Part shown: piece by piece, positions 11,506 to 64,000 of the stretch
Position numbering within the stretch: the stretch's first letter is position 1
Layout: the number at the start of each line of letters is the position of its first letter
IMG/VR virus record: IMGVR_UViG_2718218136_000001
Length of the DNA: 64,000 bases
Origin: a virus
Taxonomy: Duplodnaviria > Heunggongvirae > Uroviricota > Caudoviricetes
Direction: 5' to 3' (one strand)
Program-made: the position numbers and the translations under genes
Notes under the pieces: generated by a model
Database searches by the model: none
What the model saw: the letters and a program-made list of their open reading frames with translations, nothing else
Told to the model about the DNA's origin: nothing

Positions 11506-12737
<1,232 letters not shown>

Positions 12738-24399: not shown

Positions 24400-24416
24400 C
24401 CATTAACGCTTAAATG

Positions 24417-26399: not shown

Positions 26400-26455
26400 A
26401 CGTCAATGCATTAGGGTATACTTCTCCATAGAACTATAAGTAAATGGAGTAAGTA

Positions 26456-27556: not shown

Positions 27557-27814
27557 GTATGAAAATGAATATTTAGACGCCGTTGAATACTCAATGTCCA
27601 ACATGAGCAAAGAAATGAGATTAGGTTATTCGTGGCATGCTTATAGAGCTTGGGAAACAAGATGGTCCACAATCATTGCTTCAAATCGATTAATAATAAA
27701 AAACGCATCGAAGAAATTGGCGTACTGGAGGATGCTAATTCTATAGTAAAAGATATAGTGTAATTGAAGAGCGGCAAAAATTTAACGGGCAGCTACAACT
27801 GCCCGATATATAAA

Positions 27815-28063
27815 TCAATCCGCATTCAGGAGCAATGCGTTATCTATGATGATCTGCTCCCATTCTTCGAATGCCCGGTCGCGGACGCCCTGGGGAACGC
27901 TGTTAGTTTTGAAATCGACGACCGTACGCCATTTCCCGTCCGGACGGTACATGCGCAGAGCTTTACTTCCCCCTTCCCTGCGCACCTCAACGTTATGCTT
28001 ATCAGCAAACTCTTGTAATGCTCGTAGCGTCCCATGCTTTACTGTGTAGTATCGCTTTTTCAA
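27815..28063 (-). CDS. lxc: Lxc/Bof-like C1 co-repressor
   Basis: 82-aa basic protein upstream of darB; size and position as P1 lxc. Confidence 0.55.
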   Translation of the reverse strand: MKKRYYTVKHGTLRALQEFADKHNVEVRREGGSKALRMYRPDGKWRTVVDFKTNSVPQGVRDRAFEEWEQIIIDNALLLNAD

Positions 28064-28500
28064 GTTTTCTCTCCAGCCTGTGCCAAGGCTTCAACTTCCA
28101 AATCGTAAGACTCAAACTCATAGTCCTGGTCGTCAACTTCTTCAGGCACTGGCAGTAAATGCCAGGCTGAGTATATCTGACCATTATCAAAACGCTCCTG
28201 GCTGTAGAGCGTCGCGGCTATGAGTGTTAGCGCCGGGCGGTCATAACGGTAAATTTTGCGAACGTCACGGTCAACGAGACGACCGAAATTACCATAACCG
28301 CGCTCCAGTAATAATTTTTTAATTTCCGGCCAGTATGGACCATAGCTGCGGTACAGGCGGGGATTTTTCAGTAATCGCCCGCGTAGCCCTGACAGGAAGA
28401 AATCAACGTATTCGTCTTCTGTCTTTCCTAACAACGCTGTACGGAGTACCGCCTCAAGATATGTTTTATTCGGTTTTATTGTATCAGATAGTGTGGCCAT
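28060..28500 (-). CDS. Ulx-like protein
   Basis: 146 aa, ATGA-coupled to the lxc-like gene, immediately upstream of darB. Confidence 0.45.
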   Translation of the reverse strand: MATLSDTIKPNKTYLEAVLRTALLGKTEDEYVDFFLSGLRGRLLKNPRLYRSYGPYWPEIKKLLLERGYGNFGRLVDRDVRKIYRYDRPALTLIAATLYSQERFDNGQIYSAWHLLPVPEEVDDQDYEFESYDLEVEALAQAGEKT

Positions 28501-28533
28501 ATTATGCGACGCCCGGCGAACCGGGCGCTCCTG

Positions 28534-31500
28534 TTATGCGTATTGTTGGATGACGGCCAGAACGTCCGCCACGTTGTGTTTTGTCTCGATAATCCACCAG
28601 TTACCCGGGAAATCGCTGTTCTTCGCCTTCGCTGGCAGCCAGCGAGCGCCGAATTTCGCCTTGATTGCGTCTTTCGCACGGAAAAGAACGCCTTTCATGC
28701 CTGAGGCTTCCTGAAGCCCAAATACCTCGCCAGCGGCGAATTTTGGTGCGTACATCATCTTCAGGTCGGCGGTGGATACGCGATAATTCAGACCAAGAGA
28801 CTGAGCTATGCTGGTGGCATCACCCTGTATTGATGATAACTCTTCTTGTTTCTCGTTTCTGGCGGCAATTTCTTCCTCCGTGATGTTGCCAAGGGCCAGG
28901 TTTATCCGATCAGCGTCGGCCTGTTTCTCTTCATCGGTGCGCCCGGCAAGAACCGTGTTAATTCTCTGCAATATCTCCACATGATTCTTGCGCATGCTGA
29001 GCAATTCCGGCGTAACCTCGTTAAGATCCACCAGCCCAAGGATGGCAAGGTCGGAAAACATTGATACCAGGTTGTAGGTCATGCGATAGCTGAGTTGGCC
29101 ATAGGCTGATGGCAACTGCACCGCATCCATTTGATAGGCATCCATAAATTTAGAGCCGTCGTTTACGACATCCGCAATTGCAGGTGTGATTTTCCCTGTG
29201 GTGGCGGCCTCCCTGATTGCTGTTACCCATGATTGAGTCAGTGCGGCGACTGCATGATTCAGATTGGCTTCCCGTTCTGCTGCGATGCGCGCGCTTGCTG
29301 AGTCCATTGCCTGCTTGATCTCGGCTTTATTGCTGTAAATGCCAATGGTGCCAAACTGTGCTGTGGTGATCTCATAATCTGACGCCCGGAACTCATGGGT
29401 ACCGAAAATGGCATTGGTGACCTCAAGTTCAGAATCCCCGTTACGAGTAGCCCCCTGGCTTGTTTTCTCCGGCATTTTTGCGATCGCATCCGCTATTTTC
29501 TCCTGAATTACTTCAGGGGATAGCGTATCTCCGTATGACGCGATTACATCGCCATAATTGGAGCCAAACAATTCAACCAGGAATGTTTCTGCCGAACGGA
29601 TCTGGCGGTTATTCCCTTCCGACATCATACCAAGCACCCATTTTGCAATTGACGACTTCAGCGCGCCGTCACGGCGATCCGGGTAAACCGCATGCTTCAG
29701 TGGGGCCGTATAGGAACCAACAAAATCAATGCTATAGCCTGACTCTGTAGTCTGAACGCCGTATGAGTCAGTGATTTTGATCATGCCGCGCTGCTGGAAA
29801 CGGTAGAAATCGTCACAGGAAATGATGTCGTTAATCCCGGCGATGGAGACGCCACCACTGATTTTCTGCATAACAGCATCTTCATCGGGAGTTACATCAA
29901 CCTGTTTATCCAGCGTCTTCACATCCCAGTTACCCGATTTGGTGCCTTTGAAGGTAAAGATGATCTCCACGTCTGCGCGCTGGCTGTCGAAGTCCAGCGA
30001 CTTAATGCGAACGATATCACCGGCACAATCATAGTATTGGCCTACACGCCATGAGCGATCGCCGATAACAAGGAACTCATTCGCATGGTTAACCAGATCA
30101 GGATCAACATCCAGAATGCCTTTATTTATTGCATCCTCCACCAGCGGGCGCAGGCGTTTGATATCCGTCGCGGCCTTCTGAGTACGGTTCAATAATTTCT
30201 CATAGCGGGAGATGGCCTGAGAGATATTAGCCTTGCGCTGAATGGCGCTTTTCAACGACGCGCGATACTGTGCTAACAACATACGGTCTGTGTGATGGAC
30301 GCTACCCCAGCGGGCTTTCCAGTCTGCGTTATCAGCTGCTTTGGCCATTACCGCCTGTTTGAATTTGGCGACGTCGGCGGTGGTCTTTTCAAGTTCCGCT
30401 TTGCTTCGCTCCAATTCAGCGGTAAGTACCTCCACATCCTCACCAGCTGCGTGCTGCGCCTTGATGTAGTTCTGAAGGTCGATAGTAGCCTGTTCTTTCT
30501 GGCGAGCGCGTTTCGCAGCTTTCGCCTTATCCATTTGAACCTGCATCATTACCAGACGTTCGCCGTCATCCTTCGCGGTATACATCTGCATTTCGATCAT
30601 GTCATTGGCGTCGGCGTTCTCCATTTCTGACTTATCTGAACGGAGGATATCGGAGATCCAGCCTGCTTTACGCTTCAGCGTCTTCAGTCGGTATTCATCG
30701 AAAGACCCCTTGCCGCAGTAGTAGTGAACGCGAACGCTTGCACGGTTGGAGCCAACTCGTGCACCGCGACCGTTACGTTGTGCGATACTGGCTGGTGTCC
30801 ACGGCAACGTCAGGTGGTGGATATCCGTCGTTCCTCGATGCAGGTTGATACCCACCTCTGCCTTTTTGTTGCAGATGATGATCGGAGTCCGGCCCTCCTG
30901 GAAGTCGGCTGCAATCTTTTCCAGACCGCCCAACGACATTTCATTTTGCTGCGCGATATAGGCGTCATACAGAGCCATTTGCTCGTTGTATTTCGCTATC
31001 TGTGCATCTGTTGGTTCATCCGGTAGCTCTTTCGGCGGTTTAACCGCTTTCAGTTTCTTACCGGTTTTACCTGCCTCGGCAACCGTCTGAGCATTCAGGA
31101 TCCCCACCTTTGAAGGTTCAAGGTTTAGAGCATTGCAGATAATGCGCTTGAGCTTCTGGTGCTGCGTTTTTTCATCGGTGAAGATGATTTGCTTACCTTC
31201 CGGGAAAAACTCCTTCAGCGTCGCGATCAGCTTCGCGTATTTCGGCGTAACGGGGTGAGTTACGGTCAGTTCGTCAATGCCAAACCTGGCCAGGCGCTTA
31301 TTCACTTCCTGCTCGAACGCTTCCGGAACCTGCAACTGAATAAACTCGCCCTTATCTATCAGGGAGTATTGCGATTGCTGCGTGATTGAATCATCACTGT
31401 CGTCGTCTTCGCTGGTGGCTTGTTTAGGCAAACTGTCCGCAAGCTGCTGCACCGCATCGGCGTACTCCGGCAGGAAACGATAGGTGATCCGGCGATAGTA

Positions 31501-34500
31501 CAGGTCCATGTCAGTACATACGCGGTCCATATCCCTGATTATTGAGAAGATCGGACGGGCTTTCTCGTGCTCAATCACGCCGTCTTCATTGACCGAGGTC
31601 GTTACGCCATTGTTGGCTTTGGCCGCCGCTTCCGCCTGCTGACGCAATTCTTCATACGCCGCCAGTTGTTCTTCAGTAAGTGGTGCATCCTGCTGGTGTT
31701 CGTCCAGCTCCGGGATCTCCACGGTATCCTTAACGTCTTCCGCCGTTTTAAGCGTTACCCAGCGATGGAATATACCGCGCAGCGCATCAAGGTTTTCAAA
31801 GCCCACCAGCGCCATTTTTTCTTCAACTTCACCGCTAATTTTCTGTACCGTTTCCAGCCTGGTCTTGCCGAAGAATTTAACGAAGTCATCAGGACCGTAG
31901 ATCCCCATGTTCTGCCAGTATTCCTTCGGCAGAACATGAGAAAGCATGTTGTATGCATCGATCGGGGTGTTAACGACTGGCGTTGCAGTCAGGAGAACCG
32001 GCCCGCGCCCGCCATTCTTTTTCATCAGGTACGCGTTTTTAATTGCCATATCTCGCGCCGATTGCGCCACCGCGCTGGTGGGCAGATAGGCCAGTTGTGA
32101 CGCTTCGCGACCATTTTTATAGCTATTGCGGTAGTTGTGACCTTCGTCAGCGATCACACTATCGAAGCCCATATCCTCAAAGTACGGATACTTCTCTGCT
32201 TTTTCGGTGCCGGTATCTGAATACTCCGACAATACCCGGCGACGCGCGGCCTCTTTGCGGTGGGAGTCGGAGTCCATTGCGCTGGCTACGCGTCCGGCGG
32301 CAACGAAGTCATAAAGCATATCCTGTGCATGCTCATCTACGGTGTCATCACGTAGCGGAATGCGGGCGTATTGTTCTTTGGTAAACACGACTGCACGGTA
32401 ATTTGAGTGCGGGATCGCGTTCATCCGCGCCGTGATAGTGGCTTCATCTGCCAGCTTAAGAGCATCGCGCATAACTGGAGTGCCATCAGTACCAAGAACA
32501 GGTTTACCGTTCTCATCGAGCACCGGCACCTGGCGAATCTGATCACCATCCATCAGCACATCAAGACCGACGAACAGGTAGTTACTGAATGCCTCTTCAC
32601 TCAGGAATTCTTTTGCTTCGTAATACCAGTTTTCCAGCACTGATTTAGGCACTACATACGCAGTACGGGTGGAGCGACCGTTCTCATAGTTGAACGCCTC
32701 AAGCGCCAGCGCGGTCGTGGTTTTACCCAGCCCGGTGCCGAAGCCCAGGATGCCGCGCCCATCTTCGGACAGTCGGCGCACCTCGCTATTCTGGTAATCA
32801 AATGGCTGGCGCTTACCGCTTAATCCCTTCAACCCAAGCGGATCGCCAGAGTGTTCATACGGGATATTGCTATTGAACACATCGTTGTATTTGGCAACCA
32901 GCTCATCGTAGCGATCGTGCGTCTTGATCCACTTATTGAACTGGTCCTCAAGCAGTGCCATCTGCTCGCGGTAGCCGTTCGCCGTCGCGCTATCTTTGCC
33001 ACCGATACGCGCACCATTGAGATACTTTTCCAGCTGTGCCGGGAACCCGGTCGCGTTTTCACCTGATTTACGGTCCCACTCGTAGCGGATCTCGCCTGTT
33101 TCTTTATCCTTGCGCTGGACGACACCGTATCGGTGCCCGACGAACAGACCATCACCACCGTGATAGGTGTCAGAAACCATTTCGTCGCCTTCCAGCTGCA
33201 CTGACTGCACATAGCGCAGATCCGGATAGCCGTTTTCCTGCAAAAACTCCAGAATGACGGAACGGTCGAACCAACGGCTATTGAGCTTAAACCGGATATT
33301 CTCTGCTGGCGTCTTGATGCGCTTCTCTTCGATCGCTGCCAGCTGATTAAGGACGTTGTTCTTTACTGGACCGTCGGGGAGCGTGGCGAGGAATTCCTGT
33401 TTTGGAGCCACTATCTCGTTAATGTCGCCGCTGGTGGCGCGGGCGAACGGAACAATCCCGCCATACGGTGAAACCGCAATACCAGGAGTGCTGGCCAATA
33501 AATTAAGCAACTCTTCATCACTGGCTGGCAATTCGCCGGTAAACGCAAGGCGGAAATCATCGAGCTGGATTGGATCGCGGGTAAGATCGCTATAGAGATA
33601 ACGCAGGGTGTCCTGATAGCTGGTGGAGTCATAACTGGCGCTGGAATCATGCGTAACCAGCTTTCCTGTCAGCTCGTCAGAAATAGTGCCATCCAGCTTA
33701 ATTGCACCACGGAAAGCAAACCAGGCGCGCGCACCGCTTCCCGATAATTTAGCTATCGGACCGCGACCAGGGTTACCAAAACGGTCAATCTCTGCCTGCA
33801 AACGGGATACCAGAGAAAGGCGCTGCTGTTCGATTTGTTCAGCACTATGCCCGGCGGCCTTCATATCCTGATATTCAATTAACATCCGGCCAATCATCGC
33901 CCCACGATACAAGCGTTCACGGTATTTTTCAGGCTGGCTGTTAATCCAGTCCACCAGCGGCACCATATCGTCGCTGATTGATGTGGTGTACTTATCGCGG
34001 ACATTTGCCATCTGGGTAAATGTCATACCGAGACGGCCTTCTGTTGTAGTCAGGTTACGCTGAAGAGCCTCCCAGCTATCCGCGCCATAACTGGCAGCAT
34101 CAATTTTAAGTTCCTTCCCGGCATCAGCTTCAATCCAGCGACCACCAGCATATTTTTGCCATACGCCATTAATCAGGCGCATTTCCCCTTCACCAACAAC
34201 GTCTGCGGTCAGTGACGGTTCAGCCATATCGAGCAAAGACCAGTCGATACGGCTTTCGAAACGATGAATCAGCTTCGCTTTAAGAGCCTGGTTATCAATC
34301 TGACCGTCGGCACGAACCTCAATACGCCCCTGGAAGCCCTTTTCCTGGGTGCCATGAACAAACCGGCGGCCATCCTTTTCAAACCACTTGCCAGAAATAA
34401 ACGTTGGCCAAAGCACATTTGCTGATTCAAGAGTGCTTTCATCCACCAGGGAGATTTTCTCAGCCATCTCTGCCGGATGTTTGCGCATCAGCACCACATC

Positions 34501-35301
34501 AACGATTGTACTGGTCCCGTTTGCGTCAAAAGTACCGGTAGGCAAGCGGTGAGCGCCAAGAAATTCAGCTTTACGGGATAGGCGCAGGCGTAACCGCTTC
34601 ATGTTTGAACCTGAAACAATGGACGGCGGCACAATCACACACATGAATCCGCCAGGCTTTATCTTGTCCAGCATGCGGAGCATGAAGTAAGAACCCATGT
34701 CCGTTTCTTCTGCGTAAGGCTTATCGATGTTGCGTGTGTTATCACGACCACCGAACGGAACGTTACCCACAACATGGTCGAATGAATCGTTAGGCGTGCT
34801 TACAGCCAGCTGTTCGAACGGGGAAATCTGTACGCTGTCTTCCGGGTGTAACAGCTGGTTTATACGACCGGAAACACTGCTGATCTCAGTCGCGGTCATC
34901 ACCGTACCAACCGGTTTTGTCTCATTAAAAACGCCGGTGCCCGCCGATGGTTCCAGAGTGTTACCTACGTCCGCGCCGTAGAGCTTCATGATCTCCCAGA
35001 CACCTTCAGCGATCGGCTTTGGTGTGTAATATTCGGAGACGGACCCGCCAATGCCGCCTTCACCGGTGTACCCAGCCAGGATCTGGCGCTGTTCATCTGT
35101 CAGTGTCGCGCCGTCCACCAGCGAATTAAGCAAATCTATCGCCTTCTGATTCGCCTCCCGGCGCAGTCGGTCATAGCTTTTGCCTTCCACCTTTTCCACG
35201 CCGTATTTAATCGGCGCTCGGTGAGATGTTATTGCCCTAATGTATTTTAATATTTCGCTGACACTTGAACAGCGAAACACCCCCATAGATAGCTTGTTCA
35301 T
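28534..35301 (-). CDS. darB: DarB antirestriction protein (methyltransferase plus helicase domains)
   Basis: 2255 aa, same length as P1 DarB; helicase Walker A GFGTGLGKTTT and DEGH box. Confidence 0.9.
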   Translation of the reverse strand: MNKLSMGVFRCSSVSEILKYIRAITSHRAPIKYGVEKVEGKSYDRLRREANQKAIDLLNSLVDGATLTDEQRQILAGYTGEGGIGGSVSEYYTPKPIAEGVWEIMKLYGADVGNTLEPSAGTGVFNETKPVGTVMTATEISSVSGRINQLLHPEDSVQISPFEQLAVSTPNDSFDHVVGNVPFGGRDNTRNIDKPYAEETDMGSYFMLRMLDKIKPGGFMCVIVPPSIVSGSNMKRLRLRLSRKAEFLGAHRLPTGTFDANGTSTIVDVVLMRKHPAEMAEKISLVDESTLESANVLWPTFISGKWFEKDGRRFVHGTQEKGFQGRIEVRADGQIDNQALKAKLIHRFESRIDWSLLDMAEPSLTADVVGEGEMRLINGVWQKYAGGRWIEADAGKELKIDAASYGADSWEALQRNLTTTEGRLGMTFTQMANVRDKYTTSISDDMVPLVDWINSQPEKYRERLYRGAMIGRMLIEYQDMKAAGHSAEQIEQQRLSLVSRLQAEIDRFGNPGRGPIAKLSGSGARAWFAFRGAIKLDGTISDELTGKLVTHDSSASYDSTSYQDTLRYLYSDLTRDPIQLDDFRLAFTGELPASDEELLNLLASTPGIAVSPYGGIVPFARATSGDINEIVAPKQEFLATLPDGPVKNNVLNQLAAIEEKRIKTPAENIRFKLNSRWFDRSVILEFLQENGYPDLRYVQSVQLEGDEMVSDTYHGGDGLFVGHRYGVVQRKDKETGEIRYEWDRKSGENATGFPAQLEKYLNGARIGGKDSATANGYREQMALLEDQFNKWIKTHDRYDELVAKYNDVFNSNIPYEHSGDPLGLKGLSGKRQPFDYQNSEVRRLSEDGRGILGFGTGLGKTTTALALEAFNYENGRSTRTAYVVPKSVLENWYYEAKEFLSEEAFSNYLFVGLDVLMDGDQIRQVPVLDENGKPVLGTDGTPVMRDALKLADEATITARMNAIPHSNYRAVVFTKEQYARIPLRDDTVDEHAQDMLYDFVAAGRVASAMDSDSHRKEAARRRVLSEYSDTGTEKAEKYPYFEDMGFDSVIADEGHNYRNSYKNGREASQLAYLPTSAVAQSARDMAIKNAYLMKKNGGRGPVLLTATPVVNTPIDAYNMLSHVLPKEYWQNMGIYGPDDFVKFFGKTRLETVQKISGEVEEKMALVGFENLDALRGIFHRWVTLKTAEDVKDTVEIPELDEHQQDAPLTEEQLAAYEELRQQAEAAAKANNGVTTSVNEDGVIEHEKARPIFSIIRDMDRVCTDMDLYYRRITYRFLPEYADAVQQLADSLPKQATSEDDDSDDSITQQSQYSLIDKGEFIQLQVPEAFEQEVNKRLARFGIDELTVTHPVTPKYAKLIATLKEFFPEGKQIIFTDEKTQHQKLKRIICNALNLEPSKVGILNAQTVAEAGKTGKKLKAVKPPKELPDEPTDAQIAKYNEQMALYDAYIAQQNEMSLGGLEKIAADFQEGRTPIIICNKKAEVGINLHRGTTDIHHLTLPWTPASIAQRNGRGARVGSNRASVRVHYYCGKGSFDEYRLKTLKRKAGWISDILRSDKSEMENADANDMIEMQMYTAKDDGERLVMMQVQMDKAKAAKRARQKEQATIDLQNYIKAQHAAGEDVEVLTAELERSKAELEKTTADVAKFKQAVMAKAADNADWKARWGSVHHTDRMLLAQYRASLKSAIQRKANISQAISRYEKLLNRTQKAATDIKRLRPLVEDAINKGILDVDPDLVNHANEFLVIGDRSWRVGQYYDCAGDIVRIKSLDFDSQRADVEIIFTFKGTKSGNWDVKTLDKQVDVTPDEDAVMQKISGGVSIAGINDIISCDDFYRFQQRGMIKITDSYGVQTTESGYSIDFVGSYTAPLKHAVYPDRRDGALKSSIAKWVLGMMSEGNNRQIRSAETFLVELFGSNYGDVIASYGDTLSPEVIQEKIADAIAKMPEKTSQGATRNGDSELEVTNAIFGTHEFRASDYEITTAQFGTIGIYSNKAEIKQAMDSASARIAAEREANLNHAVAALTQSWVTAIREAATTGKITPAIADVVNDGSKFMDAYQMDAVQLPSAYGQLSYRMTYNLVSMFSDLAILGLVDLNEVTPELLSMRKNHVEILQRINTVLAGRTDEEKQADADRINLALGNITEEEIAARNEKQEELSSIQGDATSIAQSLGLNYRVSTADLKMMYAPKFAAGEVFGLQEASGMKGVLFRAKDAIKAKFGARWLPAKAKNSDFPGNWWIIETKHNVADVLAVIQQYA
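35231..35247 (+). promoter_or_regulatory. C1-operator-like site in the darB/prt divergent region
   Basis: attgccctaatgtattt. Confidence 0.4.
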
Positions 35302-35367
35302 TGGTAATCCTTAACAAGTGACTAGTGTTAAATTCCGTTAAAACACGATGCGAATTATTCTAATTAA

Positions 35368-38098
<2,731 letters not shown>

Positions 38099-38100
38099 CA

Positions 38101-38130
38101 CCCTCCACGCCCTGACGGGCGTGGAGGATG
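38101..38130. terminator. 11-bp GC-rich stem-loop between convergent pro and ddrA-like genes
   Basis: cctccacgccc tgac gggcgtggagg; no flanking U-tract. Confidence 0.45.
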
Positions 38131-38496
38131 TCACGCTGCCTCTTTAATGTTGGCGGCTATCCATGCCGCCGTGTGCTGTTTAACCTGGTCCAGGTCGATG
38201 TATGTGCCAACATATTGACTCAAATCCTGCAAGGTACCGATAAATGCATCGGTGCTCTGATCGACGAATTTATCAGCCAGGAAATCAGCAACCAGTTTTG
38301 GCACACCATCATGTTCCGAAGGTTGTTTTTCCTCGCCACTACCGCCGCCGGACGCGCCGTACCCCATCTGTTGCATGATCTGGTCAATTTCATCGCTGAT
38401 ATCCAGCAACTCCATGCCACTCGCGGTAGCAGCTTTGGACATCAGAGAATCCAACTTGTCGCTGAGGTCCATTAACTCAATAGCTGATAGTGTCAT
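38131..38496 (-). CDS. Small acidic protein at the ddrA position
   Basis: 121 aa, immediately downstream of darA. Confidence 0.5.
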   Translation of the reverse strand: MTLSAIELMDLSDKLDSLMSKAATASGMELLDISDEIDQIMQQMGYGASGGGSGEEKQPSEHDGVPKLVADFLADKFVDQSTDAFIGTLQDLSQYVGTYIDLDQVKQHTAAWIAANIKEAA

Positions 38497-42248: not shown

Positions 42249-42809
42249 ATGCTAATAGGCTATGTACGCGTATCAACAAATGAACAAAACACTGCTTTAC
42301 AACGAAACGCTCTTGAAAGCGCAGGATGTGAGCTAATTTTTGAGGACAAGGCGAGCGGCAAAAAGGCTGAGCGCCCTGGGTTAAAAAAGGTACTCCGTAT
42401 GCTTTCCAGAGGTGATACCCTGGTCGTATGGAAGTTAGATCGTCTTGGGCGCAGCATGCGTCACTTAGTTGTGCTGGTGGAAGAGCTGCGTGACAGAGGC
42501 ATTAACTTCCGGAGTCTCACTGACTCCATCGACACCAGTACACCAATGGGGCGCTTTTTCTTTCACGTAATGGGGGCGCTGGCAGAAATGGAACGTGAAC
42601 TTATTGTTGAACGTACACGCGCTGGACTTGATGCAGCTCGCGCAGAAGGTCGAATAGGTGGGCGTCGGCCTAAATACCAGAAAGAAACATGGCAGCAAAT
42701 GCGGCGATTGCTGGAGAAGGGCATCCCCCGTAAGCAGGTTGCAATCATCTATGATGTGGCTGTTTCCACTCTTTATAAGAAGTTTCCGGCGTCATCATTT
42801 CAATCCTAA
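42249..42809 (+). CDS. cin: Cin serine invertase
   Basis: 186 aa, MLIGYVRVSTNEQNTALQ...; resolvase catalytic Ser and C-terminal HTH; ends at cixL. Confidence 0.95.
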   Translation: MLIGYVRVSTNEQNTALQRNALESAGCELIFEDKASGKKAERPGLKKVLRMLSRGDTLVVWKLDRLGRSMRHLVVLVEELRDRGINFRSLTDSIDTSTPMGRFFFHVMGALAEMERELIVERTRAGLDAARAEGRIGGRRPKYQKETWQQMRRLLEKGIPRKQVAIIYDVAVSTLYKKFPASSFQS

Positions 42810-42826
42810 ACCTTGGTTTAAGAGAA
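42801..42826. other. cixL crossover site (caatcctaaacc-tt-ggtttaagagaa)
   Basis: 26-bp imperfect dyad at the outer edge of the left inverted repeat. Confidence 0.75.
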
Positions 42827-43409
42827 CTCGGTACCAGCGGTGAAAAGATCCCCCTGTTGAGCACGGCTAACACATGGAGTGCACGCCAGACTTTCAACGG
42901 CGGGATCACCGGGGCGCTGACAGGGAACGCCGATACCGCAACAAAATTGAAAACAGCCAGAAACATTAATGGCGTCAGGTTCGATGGTTCTGGTGACATT
43001 AATATCAATACTCTGGTATCGCGCGGTCGCGTAACGGCCCTGGAGGCGAATGCACAGGGAACATCCGGGATTCAGCTGTATGAGGCATACAACAATGGCT
43101 ACCCTTCCCCCTATGGCAATGTGCTTCACCTTAAAGGTGCCACCGCTGCTGGCGAAGGTGAGTTATTCATTGGCTGGAGTGGCACGAGCGGTACCCATGC
43201 GCCCGTACATATCCGTTCGCGGCGGGATACTGATTCTGCCAACTGGTCTGAATGGGCGCAGGTCTATACGTCAAAAGATTCAATTCCCGGCGTCAATGCC
43301 AAAGGGGATCAGGATACCTCTGGTAATGCGGCTACAGCGACCAAGTTGCAGACAGCATGTACTATCAACGGTGTCTCGTTTGATGGTTCTAAAAATATTG
43401 AGCTAACGG
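42811..43409. repeat. Left ~600-bp inverted repeat of the invertible C segment
   Basis: Reverse-complement identical to 46514-47111. Confidence 0.9.
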
Positions 43410-44371
43410 TTGAAAATTTAAATCTTGAGCGAACAGTAGAATTAGCCGCTGGGTCATTGCAGAAAAATCAGAACGGCGCGGATATTCCTGGAAAAGATAC
43501 CTTCACTAAAAATATTGGTGCATGTCGCGCTTTTCACAGTTCTATTAGTACAGGTGCAGGGAACTGGACAACGGCACAATTGATTGAATGGCTGGATTCT
43601 CAAGGGGCATTCAATCACCCATACTGGATGTGCAAATGTTCATGGTCGTACGGCAATAATAAAATTATAACCGATACTGGCTGTGGAACTATTCATCTTG
43701 CAGGTTGCGTTATTGAGGTTATGGGTAATAAAGGTGCCATGACCATACGCGTTACTACGCCGAGCACGTCCAGCGGTGGCGGAATCACTAACGCTCAATT
43801 CACTTATATTAATCATGGTGATGCTTACGCTCCTGGCTGGCGACGAGACTACAACACGAAAAACCAGCAGCCTGCATTTGCTTTAGGGCAAACAGGACGC
43901 AGGGTCGCAAATGATAAAGCTGTTGGCTGGAACTGGAATAGCGGCGTTTATGATGCAGATATCAGTGGCGCATCGACATTAATCCTCCACTTTAATATGA
44001 ATGCGGGGAGTTGCCCTGCTGTACAGTTCCGCGTGAATTACAGAAATGGCGGTATCTTTTATCGTTCAGCGCGTGATGGTTATGGCTTTGAAGCTAACTG
44101 GTCAGAGTTTTACACCACAACACGCAAACCCTCTGCGGGAGATGTTGGTGCATATACGCAGGCAGAATGTAACTCAAGGTTTATTACAGGTATTCGCCTT
44201 GGCGGTCTGTCATCTGTTCAGACATGGAATGGTCCTGGCTGGTCTGACAGGTCAGGTTATGTCGTTACTGGTTCAGTTAACGGAAACCGTGATGAATTAA
44301 TTGATACAACTCAGGCAAGGCCAATTCAGTATTGCATTAATGGGACGTGGTATAACGCGGGGAGTATTTAA
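42857..44371 (+). CDS. Alternative tail-fibre variable cassette Sv' (silent in this orientation)
   Basis: Promoterless; first ~185 aa identical to an internal part of S; distinct C-terminal domain. Confidence 0.8.
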   Translation: MSTANTWSARQTFNGGITGALTGNADTATKLKTARNINGVRFDGSGDININTLVSRGRVTALEANAQGTSGIQLYEAYNNGYPSPYGNVLHLKGATAAGEGELFIGWSGTSGTHAPVHIRSRRDTDSANWSEWAQVYTSKDSIPGVNAKGDQDTSGNAATATKLQTACTINGVSFDGSKNIELTVENLNLERTVELAAGSLQKNQNGADIPGKDTFTKNIGACRAFHSSISTGAGNWTTAQLIEWLDSQGAFNHPYWMCKCSWSYGNNKIITDTGCGTIHLAGCVIEVMGNKGAMTIRVTTPSTSSGGGITNAQFTYINHGDAYAPGWRRDYNTKNQQPAFALGQTGRRVANDKAVGWNWNSGVYDADISGASTLILHFNMNAGSCPAVQFRVNYRNGGIFYRSARDGYGFEANWSEFYTTTRKPSAGDVGAYTQAECNSRFITGIRLGGLSSVQTWNGPGWSDRSGYVVTGSVNGNRDELIDTTQARPIQYCINGTWYNAGSI

Positions 44372-57828: not shown

Positions 57829-58350
57829 TTATTTCTTTTCTGGACAAGTAGCATTTGGCTGAATTCGAGTTTCATTATCTTTAGTTGAAATAAGCACAGC
57901 AAGCCCCGTTGTAAACTGGCATGCTTTACCAACTTGAGTTGAAGTGAACACCTTAGTTCCTTCTTTATAAGTCAGTGAAACACCTTCAACAATTGTTTTA
58001 TCACTAACCAAAGAACCAGCCGCTGCACCAAGAGCCGCACCACCAGTACCGCCAGCTACAGCACCCAGTGTCGATGTGCCTTTAACATTATAACCGGCAA
58101 CGCCCCCAGCAACAGCTCCCAGTACCGCACCAAATGTCTGTGCCGCTTCTTTATTAGCTTTATTATCAACTTTCACTTTAGCTGGAAGCACAGAGATAAT
58201 ATTGACTGTCTTTGTTTCCTGCTTCGAATTCAATTGAGCGGTATCATAAACATCGGCAGCATAATCAGCACCGCTAGATTGACACCCAGAAAGAAGAATT
58301 GCAGATACAACAAGAGCGCATAAAGTATACTTTTTAGACATAAGAATCAT
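57829..58350 (-). CDS. Glycine-zipper lipoprotein (lipobox LSGC)
   Basis: Signal peptide plus Cys; GAVAGGxxG glycine-zipper repeats. Confidence 0.55.
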   Translation of the reverse strand: MILMSKKYTLCALVVSAILLSGCQSSGADYAADVYDTAQLNSKQETKTVNIISVLPAKVKVDNKANKEAAQTFGAVLGAVAGGVAGYNVKGTSTLGAVAGGTGGAALGAAAGSLVSDKTIVEGVSLTYKEGTKVFTSTQVGKACQFTTGLAVLISTKDNETRIQPNATCPEKK

Positions 58351-58630
58351 CCCAGAAAAACAAAAACCGGCGAGAAGTTACCACGAGAACGGAAAGTAAA
58401 CAAGAATACTCCCATTGACTTATATCAAATAATCAACTTTTTATAAGCTATCCCTAACTTATTGTGTATAGCTGAAAAGTCAGAGATAAGTTCACCATCT
58501 GCATTATTTCTTAAGTTAATAGTTTATTGCTAACTTAATTTATGTATCGACTATTGATATCCATCTTAAAGTAACAATATCCCTCTGCATTATTTTCATC
58601 ACAAATAATACATCTATTGCACTACGCTCA

Positions 58631-58647
58631 CCTGCTCTAATAAATTT
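58631..58647 (+). promoter_or_regulatory. C1-operator-like site upstream of the second c4-icd-ant region
   Basis: cctgctctaataaattt. Confidence 0.5.
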
Positions 58648-58839
58648 GTATTTTTAAGTCGCGAATGCTATCTTTTCGCATCATATTGACCTTTTAATCG
58701 TTCAGGCTTATAGTTTCGCCGTCGTAGCAAATTCTGCGACCAGGTTTGACAGCCTGAATGATTGTGCGGACAACCGCAGATTTCCGATATTGCGGTATTT
58801 TGTGTCCGTTAAACCGCGTTACGCCCAAATTATGGTGGG

Positions 58840-58955
58840 GCGTGATGGGGAGGCTTCGGCCTGCTGGTTTCACAATCGCCAGTCTGTCAACCCTGTCACG
58901 TCCTGCCACCTGTTTGACAGCGGGTAGCAGGTTGTTAAACCTGATTGTGAGGCCG
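58840..58955 (+). ncRNA. Candidate second c4-like RNA region
   Basis: Hairpin tctgtcaa...ttgacag positionally analogous to the one at 19914-19947; boundaries approximate. Confidence 0.25.
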
Positions 58956-59182: not shown

Positions 59183-60211
59183 AAACACCTCTCGTCACCC
59201 GTAATGAAATAGCCGAAGCGATCGCCCTGCATACTGCCTGTATGCCGACACGGGAGATCCCCGGCGCAATTGCTAACTATTTCATGATAACCAGACGTTT
59301 TTATACCCGAACAGATAAGGCTGTGATCAACAGGCTACTGATAGCCGAGATCAGGGATTATTTGATTGAACAAGGACGTCTACGTTACGCAACAGTGGCA
59401 GCAGAAATGAGAAAGGAGGCACATAGAATGACCGGTAATAATTTAAATGTTGAAAAACCAGCACCTGTTGCTTCAGCTACGCCAGCACCAGCCCTGAATG
59501 TCATCCCCAACACCGGAGACACAATCGACAGCCAAACATTGTTGAAGATGGTCAATGAGGCACGGAAATTATGTAGCGAAAAACCAGTTCGCAACAATGA
59601 TTTCATTGCCAGAGTTAAGGATGAGCTTGAAGGAGAAACCTACGAAATTTTCGTAGGTCAAAAAAACGGCGCAGTAATAGATATTATAACCATGACCTAC
59701 AAACAAGCCCTGCGAGTTGCCGCGCGCGAGTCAAAAGCGGTCCGCCGTTCGCTGATCGACAAACTGGAAGAATTGCAGCAGGCAAACTCCCCTACCCCAT
59801 CGATCCCCAAACATTACCAGAAGCTCTACGCCTGGCTGCCGAGTTGGCAGAACAGAAAATGCAGTTGGAACAACAGCTGGTGGCCGCAGCCCCTAAAGTC
59901 GATTTTGCCGACCGGGTATCAGCGGCTAATGGAATCCTGATCGGGGACTTGCAAAGGTCGTTGGACTTAAGCAAAACGCCCTTTTCTCATGGTTGCGCCA
60001 GAACGGCATTCTCATGGCTTTTGGTGCGCGCAAAAACGTACCGCGCCAGCAGTACATTAACGCCGGGTATTTCACGGTGAAAGAAGTGGTGCTGGATGAT
60101 GAAAATGGCTACCAGATACGGCTGACGCCCCAATTAACGGGTAAAGGCCAGCAGTGGTTAACTAGCAAGCTACTTGATGCTGGTTTGTTAAAACCAGTAG
60201 CAATAGGTTAA
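59179..60211 (+). pseudogene. Antirepressor ant, second copy, interrupted by two frameshifts (about 59800 and 59955)
   Basis: Homology to the intact Ant continues across three frames (ORFs 59179..59940, 59844..60080, 59993..60211). Confidence 0.6.
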
Positions 60212-60288
60212 CAAAAGAAAAAACCTGCCAGCTAACTGGCAGGTTTCTGAGCAGATCGACCAACCCGATCTGGATCGAGTTAGAAAAA

Positions 60289-60305
60289 TTTGCTCTAATA
60301 AATTT
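60289..60305 (+). promoter_or_regulatory. C1 operator, near-perfect consensus (tttgctctaataaattt), upstream of the kilA-like gene
   Basis: 16/17 match. Confidence 0.65.
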
Positions 60306-60373
60306 CGTTTCTAAGTGCAAAGAATCACCATTTCGAGCTGGTGATTGAAGGTTGATGCAAATTTGGAGAAAAA

Positions 60374-61172
60374 ATGCAACAAACATTCAATGCGGATATG
60401 AATATATCAAACCTTCATCAAAATGTCGATCCTTCAACCACCCTGCCTGTTATTTGTGGTGTTGAAATTACGACCGACCGCGCTGGCCGTTATAACCTTA
60501 ATGCTCTACACAGAGCGAGCGGACTCGGTGCCCATAAAGCGCCAGCTCAATGGCTAAGAACGCTGTCAGCCAAACAGCTCATCGAAGAGCTTGAAAAAGA
60601 AACTATGCAGAATTGCATAGTTTCGTTCGAAGGCCGTGGCGGCGGCACTTTTGCCCATGAATGCTCGCAGTGGAGTACGCTGGTTGGATTCTCCCGCGTT
60701 TCGGCTGAAGGTAAACCAGACATTTATCGACTATCGAGCTGGAAGATTACAACCTGCTATTCCGAAGAGCCTCCCAGAAGCTCTCCGTTTGGCTGCTGAC
60801 CTGGCAGAGCAAAAGCAACGGCTGGAGCAAAAAATGCTGATGGATGCACCTAAAGTCGAATTCGCCGAACGCGTTGCTACCGCCAGCGGGGTTCTAATCG
60901 GCAACTATGCCAAAGTGCTCGGCCTGGGCCAAAACTATCTCTTCACCTGGTTGCGTGATAACGGAATTCTGATCGCAACCGGTGAACGCAGAAACGTCCC
61001 CAAACAAGAATACATATCCCGTGGGTATTTCACCCTTAAAGAAACCGTGATCGATACAAGCAATGGAAGCAGGATTTCTTTCACGACTCGTATAACCGGC
61101 AAAGGTCAGCAGTGGCTGATGAAGCGATTGCTTGATGCTGGTGTGCTGGTACCTGTCGCGGCAACGCGCTAA
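60374..61172 (+). pseudogene. KilA-N domain antirepressor-like gene split by a frameshift near 60660
   Basis: N-terminal KilA-N/Bro-N-like ORF 60374..60799 and C-terminal ORF 60636..61172 carrying the shared Ant C-terminal domain; combined length about 266 codons. Confidence 0.55.
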
Positions 61173-61201
61173 CAGACGTAGTAAGAACCACCAGCATTGT
61201 A

Positions 61202-61636
61202 ATGCTGGCTAAAGTCACTTTCCTGAGCTGTATAACGATGAGCGATTTTACTTTTTCTGGCTATGAATTGGCCTGCTTTGTAACACACTCCGGTCTATCC
61301 CGTAGCGCCGGGCATATCCTGTCGCAATGTGCAAATCTCGCGGCAACAACCAGTGAATACTTCATTCACAAGCCTCACCGCCTGATCGCGGCAGAAACTG
61401 GTTATAGCCAATCAACCGTCGTTCGTGCATTCCGTGAAGCTGTAAACAAAGGAATTCTGTCTGTAGAGATTGTTATCGGCGATCACCGTGAACGTCGCGC
61501 TAACCTGTACCGGTTTACACCATCCTTTTTGGCCTTCGCACAACAAGCCAAAAATGCGCTGATTGAAAGCAAATTAAAGATCTCTTCAGCGGCAACCAAG
61601 GTTAAGCTGTTCTCGCTAAGACATTGGCTTATTTAA
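61202..61636 (+). CDS. HTH-containing protein at the repL position (possible short or truncated RepL-like lytic replication initiator)
   Basis: 144 aa; winged-helix-like AETGYSQSTVVRAFREAVNKGIL; synteny after kilA. Confidence 0.3.
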   Translation: MLAKVTFLSCITMSDFTFSGYELACFVTHSGLSRSAGHILSQCANLAATTSEYFIHKPHRLIAAETGYSQSTVVRAFREAVNKGILSVEIVIGDHRERRANLYRFTPSFLAFAQQAKNALIESKLKISSAATKVKLFSLRHWLI

Positions 61637-62040
61637 TTTTTATCCACACCCCCATGTCAAAATGATACCCCCTCCCCCTGTCAGGATGACGTGGCAATAA
61701 AGAATAAGAAGTCACAAGTTAAAAAACAAAAAGATCAGTTTCCGGCGGTGCCGGAACGACCAGACTCAAAAAATGACTTCATGGATCGCTGAGGCAAAAG
61801 CAAAGGCTGACAATCTGCGGTTATCCAAAAAACGCGCTCAAAAACATGAGTTCAAGCAGAAAGTAGAGGCGGCAGCGCGGAAATATGCTTACCTGAAGGA
61901 CAAGGCGTCTCCTGATATTGCGGGATATCAAACTTCGATAATCTGCCGCATTGCATGACGGTAAACGAAGCTCTTAATGCGGTTTAGCCAAAAAAAGATA
62001 ACGAACAATGGGGTATACCGGCAGATTCAGAGGGTGATAG

Positions 62041-62057
62041 ATTGCTCTAATCTGGAG
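62041..62057 (+). promoter_or_regulatory. C1-operator-like site (attgctctaatctggag)
   Basis: 11/17 with a perfect left half. Confidence 0.35.
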
Positions 62058-62500
62058 TCACTGGCGTTTTCAGTTTGAGTCGGAGATGCAATTGATTTTT
62101 TACAGTTAGCGATCGCTTTGCAGGATATGTTTGTATTGGCTTCTGTGTATACATGATAGCCGAAAAATGCTTGTCGATATCGACCGCAAAGAACAAGCAG
62201 GAGATTCTAGTATGGATTTTCTTTGGCGCGGTCTGGCCATTAGGATCATGTTTGCTGCAACATTTCTTCTGATGTGGATATTCACCCTTCCAGGTGATTC
62301 TATAGAAAAAAAGCCAGACATTGATACAATCGTTGCGGTGCTTGAGGCTATCTGCTTCAGGCATTACCCGAAAAGCAGATAGAAGAAGCCCCAGTAACAT
62401 TACGCGTCCTGCAAGACGCTTAACATTAATCTGAGCATATCTATGCTTAGCATACGTAGATTAGCCTCTTACCGACCAAAAGGTCAAGGAGAAGCAGGCT

Positions 62501-62646
62501 ATGAAGCAGCAAAAAGCGATGTAATCGCTCTGATCGTCATCTGTTTAACCGTCATTGTGACGGCACTGGTAACGAGAAAGACCTCTGCGAGTACGAATCC
62601 GAACGGCCAACGGAGTCACTGTCTTCACAGCCTACCGAATCTGAAA
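62501..62646 (+). pseudogene. Degenerate hok/gef-family membrane toxin gene (at least three frameshifts)
   Basis: MKQQKAM (frame 2), VIALIVICLTVIVTALVTRK (frame 1), DLCE (frame 0) and VRIRTANGVTVFTAY (frame 2) together resemble HokC/Gef MKQHKAMIVALIVICITAVVAALVTRKDLCEVHIRTGQTEVAVFTAYESE. Confidence 0.5.
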
Positions 62647-63906
62647 GTAAGAACCTGCGGGAGAGATCCCTGCACTCTTCGTGTGTCAGGTATCTCAATG
62701 CACCCTTTCCTCTCCAAATAAAAAAGCTCCCGAAGGAGCTTTAAAATACAAGGGATGACTCTTAAGCCCACTCATCCAGTTGTAGACGATACGAAGTGAC
62801 GGGCGCACAGCGGCAGTCACATCTTCGTACTAAAGTCGATTGCATCACTGTAGATTTTGCAGTCCAACATTTCAATTTGTAGCAGCTTTTGTCACAGCGT
62901 TACCCGGAAGATTTGATTCAGGGTCGCAGCCATCGTGATATCAACATAGTCCTTCGCCGCAATGCGATCTTAATGAACTGAAGAATATCGCCTTCGATAG
63001 TCTCCACCACTGGACCTGGATTTCCCCAGAGTTTCGAATTGGACCGTGCTGGTTGAACTTCACACCATTCGGACCATAGTCCTCCACATCCTCGCGGTCA
63101 TTCAGGAATTTGCGACGTGCGAACCAGTACGCTGATATCTTCATGCTGCAAAAGTGAGCTGGAATTCAGAAGATACCAGTCGTTCGCCTTTGGCCGCGTT
63201 GCAGTATAGCGGCCTTAATAAATTTACGGTTTCCTTAGTGTTATTGTCCCCATATAAAATCTTTTACTGAACGCCCGACATATCGGAGCTGTTATATCGA
63301 AGAACCGGTCAACTGGAGTTGCGGTGTTTTCAGGAAATGCCCATTGGTCCCTGGCGCATCGAGATCGAAACTTATGTCTGGATAGCGACATCAATGATGT
63401 TGATCCGCGACCAATGTTTAGCGTCACACGCTCCGGGATTCGACCACCAATACTGGCATCTTTAAGTTCCGGGCTAATCATCGCTGACAATGCGGCGATA
63501 GCTCCTGAAACCTCCGTGAATGGTCAAACAAAGCGATGAAAGTTACTGGCAGCGTGAAAGTCGGCGGTGTTCCCCCCTCCCAAACCATTAAGCTGTTCAA
63601 CGGGCCACCGACGTTGTTTCAGTACCAACCTGCGCAAAACCACTGAAAGCACCAGCAACAGACCCCATGGACATACCGGTAAACGGCGCTTCCCAATTCT
63701 GGGCCATGTTCATTGCTGCCCCCTGGCTGATATCCGGTAACCTGGTACTGAGAGTTCGTTAAAGTAACTTTCAGAAATGGCGATACACCGTCAGCCTGGC
63801 TGTAAACCCCATAAGGAATAGGTGCCATTCAAGTTAAAGGCCGGAGTTCTCCGGCCTCCTCCTTTAGCCAAGGCGCTTACGGCGCAGTTTCATTGACTTT
63901 TTGCGG

Positions 63907-64000
63907 AATGTAAATATTGTCATGAACTATATCCGTAACCTGGATAGTGAAACAGGGGCAATGGTGCGCCTGCTGGAAGATGGCGATTAGCCATTAACGC
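63907..64000 (+). repeat. Duplicate of the cre 3' end and downstream flank (identical to 24316-24409), cut by the window edge
   Basis: 94 bp identical, including the codons for NVNIVMNYIRNLDSETGAMVRLLEDGD-stop. Confidence 0.85.

What the first reader, a model, noticed from the sequence alone, without database searches (positions are those of the whole stretch)
62443..62745. Degenerate hok/gef-type toxin locus
Pieces of a Hok/Gef-like peptide (N-terminus, TM helix, DLCE, C-terminal VxIRT...VFTAY) are present in three different frames, followed by a hairpin. This indicates a decayed type I toxin-antitoxin locus; an active overlapping small RNA or alternative peptide cannot be excluded.
Basis: partly seen in the sequence, partly recalled or inferred. 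Interest (0 to 1): 0.4.

Follow-up and report, generated by a model that had tools for sequence, protein, structure and literature searches.

The report
Known hok/sok locus, garbled by sequence errors
This is an ordinary hok/mok/sok toxin-antitoxin cassette of a P1-like phage-plasmid, and its broken appearance most likely comes from a 2-4 kb stretch of uncorrected single-base deletion errors beside an assembly junction, not from biological decay.

Summary
Pieces of a Hok peptide lie in three frames at 62501-62650, and a hairpin follows at 62723-42. The locus is an unmistakable hok/mok/sok cassette: the Rfam sok model scores 81 bits (E=1.6e-17), and it is 95-96% identical to the 'hokD' locus annotated in over 200 P1-like plasmids.

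Real decay is very unlikely. The copy differs from intact relatives by 17 single-base deletions and 1 insertion, but only about 1 substitution. Thirty-eight of 39 natural relatives have no gaps and the other has one.

The same deletion-only pattern runs through a sharply bounded tract. It is sparse from 59804 and dense from 61603 to 63729, with 73 deletions, 2 insertions and 11 substitutions. It crosses intergenic DNA and both strands and breaks ant, kilA, repL, hok, bplB and pmgG alike. Over 21 kb of the rest of the window has 272 substitutions and 0 gaps against the same reference.

The tract ends 177 nt before a homology-free join to a second exact copy of the cre 3' end (63906/63907). Neither the deleted sequence nor the junction occurs in any collection searched.

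Verdict: a known element in a known context, with low interest. The degeneration is most probably a low-quality long-read consensus next to a misassembly.

The parts
62303..62330 (+). Promoter-like site for hok mRNA (TAGAAA, 16-nt spacer, TG-TACAAT)
   Evidence: It lies about 7 nt upstream of the position where the Rfam model and the 5' tac element begin. The assignment is an inference by position.
62336..62506 (+). hok mRNA leader. This is the match to the Rfam 'sok' model RF01794, on the hok sense strand, ending at the hok ATG.
   Evidence: 81.3 bits, gathering score 59, E=1.6e-17. The intact relative scores 114.9 bits.
62337..62347 (+). tac-like 5' element, GGTGCTTGAGG, the pairing partner of fbi
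   Evidence: In the intact relative the 5' end GGGUGCUUGAGG pairs with CCUCAAUGCACCC in the MFE and centroid folds (-166.5 kcal/mol, z=-8.9). One G is missing here at 62336.
62385..62451 (-). Sok antisense RNA homologue, carrying 4 one-base deletions
   Evidence: Mapped from the annotated sokW of phage 933W through alignment A2. The stem-loop plus U-tail folds at -30.4 kcal/mol in the intact relative and -20.0 here.
62458..62487 (-). Putative sok promoter (TTGACC, 18-nt spacer, TAATCT), free of deletions
   Evidence: Read directly from the sequence. It is positioned 6 nt upstream of the mapped Sok 5' end. It falls below the threshold of the scan. The analogy to the R1 sok promoter rests on my own knowledge.
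62443..62650 (+). mok reading frame (ATG at 62443). As written it runs on to 62721 as a 92-aa chimeric ORF: Mok N-terminus, then the Hok TM helix, then out-of-frame sequence.
   Evidence: Pfam HOK_GEF matches residues 27-47 of the 92-aa ORF (27.9 bits).
62501..62650 (+). hok coding region, 150 nt instead of 156. It has 7 one-base deletions and 1 insertion, with a stop after codon 7 as written.
   Evidence: The restored product is 92% identical to HokW of 933W.
62694..62705 (+). fbi-like 3' element, CTCAATGCACCC (one C missing at 62693)
62723..62742 (.). Hairpin between the convergent hok and bplB genes. It scores as a terminator on the minus strand.
   Evidence: It is identical in relatives.
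59804..63729 (.). Tract of window-specific one-base deletions. It is sparse from 59804 to 60688 (6 deletions) and dense from 61603 to 63729 (73 deletions, 2 insertions, 11 substitutions).
   Evidence: Against 40 relatives the dense part has 32 gaps/kb, compared with 0.05 gaps/kb for a reference against the same relatives.
63906..64000 (+). Homology-free junction at 63906/63907 between the 3' end of tail-tube gene 21 and a second, 100% identical copy of the cre 3' end (63907-64000 = 24316-24409)
   Evidence: No plasmid in PLSDB continues across it. There are no exact hits in genome or viral contigs.

Best explanation
The region is the standard hok/mok/sok post-segregational killing cassette carried by a large subgroup of P1-like phage-plasmids, between the lytic replicon gene repL and the baseplate gene bplB.

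In intact copies the mechanism is as follows; this is established knowledge of the hok/sok family and was not tested here. A stable about 430-nt hok mRNA is kept silent by pairing of its 5' tac element with its 3' fbi element. Slow 3' trimming activates it. The short-lived antisense Sok RNA pairs with the leader at the mok translation start, blocks mok translation and the hok translation coupled to it, and marks the duplex for RNase III. Cells that lose the plasmid lose Sok first and are then killed by the 51-aa membrane peptide Hok.

The copy in this window looks degenerate because the record carries a tract of uncorrected one-base deletion errors. The tract is dense from 61603 to 63729, thins out leftwards to 59804, and sits next to a chimeric junction at 63906/63907. 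This most probably reflects a poorly supported long-read consensus at a misassembly. The real DNA molecule most likely carries an intact hok/sok locus.
For: Identity of the locus:
- Rfam sok model: 81.3 bits, E=1.6e-17.
- 95-96% nucleotide identity over 481 nt to loci annotated hokD in 212 E. coli records and 227 plasmids, all P1-like among the records listed.
- 83-86% identity to Rac hok and 933W mokW/hokW/sokW.
- The restored peptide matches Pfam HOK_GEF at 78.7 bits.
- The intact relative shows tac-fbi closure and a Sok stem-loop.

Artefact:
- Within the hok mRNA, BLAST gives 17 gap positions and 1 mismatch. Of 39 IMG/VR relatives, 38 have 0 gaps, one has 1 gap, and they carry 0-8 mismatches.
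- The dense tract has 73 deletions, 2 insertions and 11 substitutions. Window 27817-38094 and 46215-57257 have 272 mismatches and 0 gaps against the same reference.
- The tract has 32 gaps/kb against 40 independent relatives. A reference against the same relatives has 0.05 gaps/kb, and the adjoining 900 nt of the window has 0.
- 77% of the deletions fall in homopolymer runs of 2 or more, where 48% is expected.
- 4 of 7 Dcm CCWGG sites are hit, where 1.2 is expected (P about 0.02).
- Deletions are spread evenly over coding and non-coding DNA: 82% are in coding sequence, which makes up 84% of the tract.
- They break ant, kilA, repL, an unnamed ORF, hok, bplB and pmgG alike.
- Deletion density rises towards a homology-free join to a duplicated cre fragment 177 nt beyond the tract.
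- The deleted hok sequence has no exact match in genome, viral or metagenome collections, and the single T-deletion none in viral contigs, while the intact 36-mer occurs in 39 viral contigs.
Against: - No reads, coverage or quality values are available, so the artefact is inferred from the mutation spectrum and context. It is not demonstrated.
- The last 177 nt before the junction and the 94 nt after it are clean, so the error tract does not touch the junction itself.
- The source record could not be found, so the sequencing platform is unknown.
- The Dcm enrichment is confounded by the homopolymer bias.
- A deletion bias does exist in real bacterial pseudogenes, although nothing like 7:1 over substitutions with every event being 1 nt.
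Confidence: 0.88

Rival explanations
1. The decay is biological. This P1-like element is a defective, non-inducible plasmid remnant in which the repL-hok-bplB-pmgG segment is no longer under selection and has accumulated inactivating frameshifts. In that case hok is a true pseudogene.
For: - As written, the hok ORF stops after 7 codons, Sok and the tac/fbi elements carry deletions, and the mRNA fold weakens from -166.5 to -129.4 kcal/mol.
- The element has other features of a rearranged or defective P1: it lacks about 6.5 kb (ddrB..ssb..lyz) relative to pYZ_2_2_2, and it has an abnormal junction at 63906.
- Natural inactivation of hok loci is well known in E. coli K-12 (own knowledge), and IS4-family insertions occur in the 3' UTR of some relatives.
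Against: - The spectrum does not look like evolution: 73 one-base deletions, 2 insertions, 11 substitutions and no multi-base deletions.
- The substitution distance to relatives is as small as between intact copies: 1 mismatch in 433 nt.
- The tract has sharp bounds unrelated to gene boundaries, and the flanks are indel-free.
- No other record shares even the first frameshift.
Confidence: 0.08
2. The cluster of -1 frameshifts is real and was produced in one event by error-prone DNA synthesis, for example Pol IV-dependent break repair, during the illegitimate recombination that created the 63906/63907 junction.
For: - The tract is adjacent to a homology-free rearrangement junction, and its density rises towards that junction.
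- The deletions are -1 events enriched in short runs. This is the class of error attributed to DinB/Pol IV (own knowledge).
Against: - About 3.5% of bases are affected over 2 kb. This is orders of magnitude above any reported break-associated mutagenesis (own knowledge).
- The 177 nt nearest the junction are clean.
- The junction itself may be an assembly chimera.
Confidence: 0.02
3. As written, the locus is a functional variant. The 92-aa ORF (62443-62721) would fuse the Mok N-terminus to the Hok transmembrane helix and encode an alternative membrane peptide still controlled by a Sok-like RNA.
For: - The ORF is open and starts at the mok ATG.
- Its residues 27-47 match Pfam HOK_GEF (27.9 bits).
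- The sok promoter region 62458-62487 carries no deletion.
Against: - The ORF exists only because of frameshifts that are part of the error-like tract.
- It has no exact match in the protein collection.
- It lacks the conserved Cys-containing C-terminal part.
- The regulatory RNA structure is degraded.
Confidence: 0.02

Closest known systems
hok/sok locus of P1-like phage-plasmids, annotated 'type I toxin-antitoxin system toxin HokD' by PGAP and 'MokW' in Punavirus P1 MH422554. Examples are pYZ_2_2_2 (NZ_JBVNBM010000003.1) and E. fergusonii NZ_CP099360.1.
   Same: - Same position, between repL and bplB.
- Same promoter, tac, Sok, mok, hok, fbi and terminator elements.
- About 99.7% identical once the one-base gaps are ignored.
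   Different: The window copy has 17 one-base deletions and 1 insertion across the mRNA. The relatives examined have none, apart from a single gap in one of 39.
hokW/mokW/sokW of Stx phage 933W (AF125520), and hok of Rac-type prophages (the hokD/relF lineage)
   Same: - 83-86% nucleotide identity over the promoter-to-fbi region.
- The restored Hok is 92% identical to HokW.
- The Sok stem-loop is conserved, and the annotated sokW maps to window 62385-62451 on the minus strand.
   Different: - The 3' end beyond fbi and the terminator differ.
- The host element differs: lambdoid prophages there, a P1-like plasmid prophage here.
hok/sok (parB) of plasmid R1, the experimentally characterised prototype
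   Same: The architecture and inferred mechanism are the same: tac-fbi closure, mok-hok translational coupling, and an antisense Sok with a 5' single-stranded tail plus a terminator hairpin. The Rfam sok model is matched above its gathering score.
   Different: - The Hok peptide is more distant, judged from my recollection of the R1 Hok sequence. It was not compared here.
- No experiment exists for the P1-like plasmid copy as far as I could find.
Chromosomal hok loci of E. coli K-12 inactivated by IS elements (hokA, hokC, hokE; Pedersen and Gerdes 1999, cited from my own knowledge)
   Same: These are genuine examples of decayed hok loci. Some P1-like relatives show the equivalent lesion: an IS4-family element of about 1.34 kb inserted between the hok stop codon and fbi, with a 12-nt duplication.
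   Different: The window copy has no IS element and no rearrangement within the locus, only scattered 1-nt deletions. That is not how known hok pseudogenes look.

Membership tests
hok/sok (Hok/Gef) type I toxin-antitoxin loci | Nucleotide or RNA-model similarity of the leader/Sok region to known hok/sok loci | tested here: met
   Rfam RF01794 scores 81.3 bits against a gathering score of 59. blastn gives 95-96% identity to annotated hokD loci and 83-86% to hokW/sokW.
hok/sok (Hok/Gef) type I toxin-antitoxin loci | Intact toxin ORF of about 50 aa with the Pfam HOK_GEF domain | tested here: not met
   As written the ORF stops after MKQQKAM, and the rest is spread over three frames. The restored sequence, which is the relatives' sequence, scores 78.7 bits. 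Membership by descent therefore holds, but function as written does not.
hok/sok (Hok/Gef) type I toxin-antitoxin loci | Overlapping mok frame that starts upstream of hok and to which hok translation is coupled | tested here: inconclusive
   The mok ATG at 62443 is present and aligns with the annotated mokW. The frame is altered by the deletions. Translational coupling cannot be tested with these tools.
hok/sok (Hok/Gef) type I toxin-antitoxin loci | Antisense Sok RNA gene with its own promoter, a 5' tail and a terminator stem-loop | tested here: inconclusive
   The homologue of the annotated sokW lies at 62385-62451 on the minus strand, and a -35/-10-like site at 62487-62458 is intact. The stem-loop is weakened by 4 deletions: -20.0 against -30.4 kcal/mol, z=-1.6 against -4.6. 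Expression was not tested.
hok/sok (Hok/Gef) type I toxin-antitoxin loci | Long-range 5' tac to 3' fbi pairing that closes the full-length mRNA | tested here: inconclusive
   The pairing is clear in the intact relative (12 or more pairs, MFE equals centroid, z=-8.9). In the window sequence only a shortened 5'-3' helix survives, and the total energy drops by 37 kcal/mol.
Uncorrected sequencing or assembly error tract | Indels greatly outnumber substitutions, with a one-base deletion bias enriched in homopolymers | tested here: met
   73 deletions, 2 insertions and 11 substitutions. 77% of the deletions lie in runs of 2 or more, where 48% is expected.
Uncorrected sequencing or assembly error tract | Confined to a contiguous tract that ignores gene boundaries, while the rest of the record is clean | tested here: met
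   There are 0 gaps in 21 kb elsewhere in the window and 0 gaps/kb in the adjoining 900 nt. 82% of the deletions are in coding sequence, which makes up 84% of the tract.
Uncorrected sequencing or assembly error tract | Variants private to this record | tested here: met
   There are no exact matches in genome, viral or metagenome contigs. The best identity in 5,426 E. coli genomes and 72,556 plasmids is 95.8%.
Uncorrected sequencing or assembly error tract | Low coverage or quality in the underlying reads, with the errors disappearing on polishing | not testable with these tools
   No reads or quality values are available, and the source record was not found.

The most novel reading that the evidence does not exclude
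The 79 one-base deletions are real and mark a tract of extreme, localised -1 frameshift mutagenesis. They would have been laid down by error-prone repair synthesis during the illegitimate recombination that joined gene 21 to cre at 63906/63907, inactivating hok/sok and six neighbouring genes in one event.
Probability: 0.02. Interest if true: 0.6.

Novelty: already known. Interest (0 to 1): 0.06.

Why it matters
It matters little for biology. hok/sok cassettes in P1-like phage-plasmids are already annotated in hundreds of records.

The practical value is as a warning. In this window, apparent pseudogenes between about 59.8 and 63.7 kb (ant, kilA, repL, hok, bplB, pmgG) should not be read as gene decay. 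The junction at 63906 should be treated as a possible misassembly.

If the deletions were nevertheless real, they would be an unprecedented cluster of frameshift mutations.

Tried and rejected
- Source record. I looked for it, and for any independent record sharing the lesions. Exact 54-nt (five deletions), 35-nt (one deletion) and junction patterns gave 0 hits in genome contigs, viral contigs and metagenome contigs. Exact-protein look-ups of two ORFs created by the frameshifts gave nothing. The platform and the contig context beyond the window therefore remain unknown.
- Literature. A search for hok in P1-like phage-plasmids gave no paper that treats this locus specifically.
- Methylation-site test. 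Deletions are enriched at Dcm sites (4 of 7, P about 0.02) but not at Dam sites (2 of 11). This is only weak support for a nanopore origin, because CC and GG runs confound it.
- Rejected: a novel small RNA or alternative peptide. The only RNA signal is the canonical hok leader/Sok. The CRISPR-DR46 hit at the hairpin is noise at E=0.94.
- Rejected: chance resemblance. The E-values exclude it.
- Rejected: natural pseudogene. The mutation spectrum argues against it (see rival explanations).

Full report
**What is there**

The window is a P1-like phage-plasmid (punavirus). It is 92-99% identical, segment by segment, to E. coli plasmid pYZ_2_2_2 and to many other P1-like plasmids.

The reported interval 62443-62745 lies between the lytic-replicon gene repL and the baseplate gene bplB. 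In relatives, PGAP annotates a 156-nt 'hokD' gene at this position, and the Punavirus P1 record MH422554 annotates 'MokW'.

- Rfam's sok model RF01794 matches 62336-62506 on the + strand with 81.3 bits (gathering score 59, E=1.6e-17). The consensus ends at the hok ATG, so the model covers the hok leader in the sense orientation.
- blastn of 62300-62780 finds 212 E. coli records and 227 plasmids that cover at least 80% of the query. The best identity is 95-96%.
- It also finds the Rac hok and 933W mokW/hokW/sokW loci at 83-86% identity.

**Check of the observation**

- Frame starting at 62441: MKQQKAM*, then later VRIRT..VTVFTAY.
- Frame starting at 62443: VIALIVICLTVIVTALVTRK.
- Frame starting at 62442: KDLCE.

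The intact relative encodes MKQQKAMLIALIVICLTVIVTALVTRKDLCEVRIRTGQTEVTVFTAYESER. It matches Pfam HOK_GEF at 78.7 bits and is 92% identical to HokW. The hairpin is at 62723-62742. The interval misses about 105-140 nt at the 5' end of the locus.

**Anatomy**

I mapped the parts by homology to the annotated 933W locus and by folding:

- Promoter-like site, 62303-62330.
- mRNA 5' end with the tac element, 62337-62347.
- Sok antisense RNA, 62385-62451 on the minus strand, with a promoter-like TTGACC, 18-nt spacer, TAATCT at 62487-62458.
- mok ATG at 62443.
- hok coding region, 62501-62650.
- fbi element, 62694-62705.
- Hairpin, 62723-62742, shared with the convergent bplB operon.

In the intact relative the full-length mRNA folds with its 5' end paired to fbi (-166.5 kcal/mol, z=-8.9). 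Sok forms a long terminator hairpin (-30.4 kcal/mol). This is the canonical hok/sok design.

The mechanism is established for plasmid R1 and inferred here. The stable mRNA is silenced by tac-fbi pairing and activated by 3' trimming. The unstable Sok RNA blocks mok translation and the hok translation coupled to it. Hok then kills plasmid-free segregants.

**Why the copy looks degenerate**

- Against pYZ_2_2_2 and P1 MH422554, the window copy differs almost only by missing single bases.
- Across the hok mRNA there are 17 one-base deletions and 1 insertion. BLAST counts 17 gap positions and 1 mismatch.
- Thirty-nine independent IMG/VR relatives were retrieved with an intact 36-mer. Thirty-eight have 0 gaps, one has 1 gap, and they carry 0-8 mismatches in the same 433 nt.
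- The pattern is not limited to hok. From 61603 to 63729 there are 73 one-base deletions, 2 insertions and 11 substitutions.
- Six further isolated homopolymer deletions lie between 59804 and 60688.
- Together they break ant, kilA, repL, an unnamed ORF, hok, bplB and pmgG.
- Against 40 relatives the dense tract shows 32 gaps/kb (range 26-35). A reference against the same relatives shows 0.05 gaps/kb, and the adjoining 900 nt of the window shows 0.
- Elsewhere in the window, divergence from the same reference is by substitution only: 272 mismatches and 0 gaps over 21.3 kb. ORFs of 1,038-2,258 aa are intact there.
- 77% of the deletions sit in runs of 2 or more identical bases, where 48% is expected.
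- 4 of 7 Dcm sites are hit, where 1.2 is expected.
- Coding and non-coding DNA are hit equally.

**The junction**

The P1 backbone stops at 63906, 42 nt into the 3' end of tail-tube gene 21 and 177 nt after the last deletion. It is joined without any homology to a second, 100% identical copy of the cre 3' end (63907-64000 = 24316-24409).

No plasmid in PLSDB continues across this point. The junction sequence has no exact match in the genome or viral collections. A tract of deletion errors that becomes denser towards a unique, homology-free join fits a poorly supported consensus next to a chimeric assembly join. This step is inference, because no reads are available.

**Verdict on mechanism and status**

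The locus is a member of the hok/sok family by descent (confidence about 0.99). As written it could not make Hok: the ORF stops after codon 7, and both regulatory RNA structures are weakened.

The lesion spectrum is incompatible with natural pseudogene evolution and typical of uncorrected long-read error. I put about 0.88 on 'intact canonical locus, garbled record'. I put about 0.08 on genuine decay and about 0.02 each on the two exotic readings, namely one-event frameshift mutagenesis at a real rearrangement and a functional Mok-Hok(TM) fusion ORF.

**Comparison with known systems and novelty**

The closest known system is the same locus in other P1-like plasmids, already annotated as hokD. 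Next come hokW/sokW of 933W and Rac hok. The mechanistic prototype is R1 hok/sok.

Truly decayed hok loci are known: the K-12 loci (own knowledge) and IS4-family insertions in some relatives. They are inactivated by IS insertion, not by scattered 1-nt deletions.

Nothing here is new. The finding is best scored as already known, with a probable data-quality artefact layered on top.

Noticed in passing
window 63906/63907; 63907-64000 = 24316-24409: A homology-free junction joins the 3' end of tail-tube gene 21 to a second exact copy of the cre 3' end. The two copies are direct repeats 39,591 nt apart. This is either a chimeric assembly join or a real deletion/duplication derivative of the plasmid.
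   Followed up: partly
window 59804-60688: Six isolated window-specific homopolymer deletions (at 59804, 59948, 60217, 60307, 60661 and 60688) truncate ant (253 aa instead of about 349) and split kilA. They are probably the thin edge of the same error tract.
   Followed up: partly
L016 6434-7772; L038 8916-10253 (probably also L017, L020, L027, L034): In several IMG/VR P1-like relatives an element of about 1.34 kb sits between the hok stop codon and fbi, with a 12-nt duplication of reference positions 337-348. It encodes a 372-aa IS4-family transposase and looks like IS186. The insertion would uncouple the fbi element from hok, as in the IS-associated chromosomal hok loci of K-12 (own knowledge).
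   Followed up: partly
window 38094-38135: The window lacks about 6.5 kb that pYZ_2_2_2 has (84617-91137: a 2,988-nt hypothetical gene, a DUF2829 gene, ssb, lysozyme). If this is real, the element has no lysozyme gene at this position and may be lysis-defective.
   Followed up: no
window 58708-58760 and 58828-58913: The immunity region immI is present: C4 antisense RNA (68.4 bits) and its a1/b1 targets (55.2 bits) lie upstream of ant. A match to isrK at 58721-58802 falls below the gathering score.
   Followed up: no
window 42803-43438 / 46485-47120: 636-nt inverted repeats, 98% complementary, flank a 3-kb segment among the tail-fibre genes. This is the invertible C-segment typical of P1.
   Followed up: no
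window 11630-11929 / 12239-12538: A 300-nt direct repeat (99% identical, 609 nt apart) lies in the region that corresponds to the type I restriction specificity (hsdS) gene of the reference. The window diverges from pYZ_2_2_2 here.
   Followed up: no
window 57257-58633 and 26339-27817: These segments have no counterpart in pYZ_2_2_2. The reference carries IS26 copies in the icd/ant region at the first site. The content was not examined.
   Followed up: no
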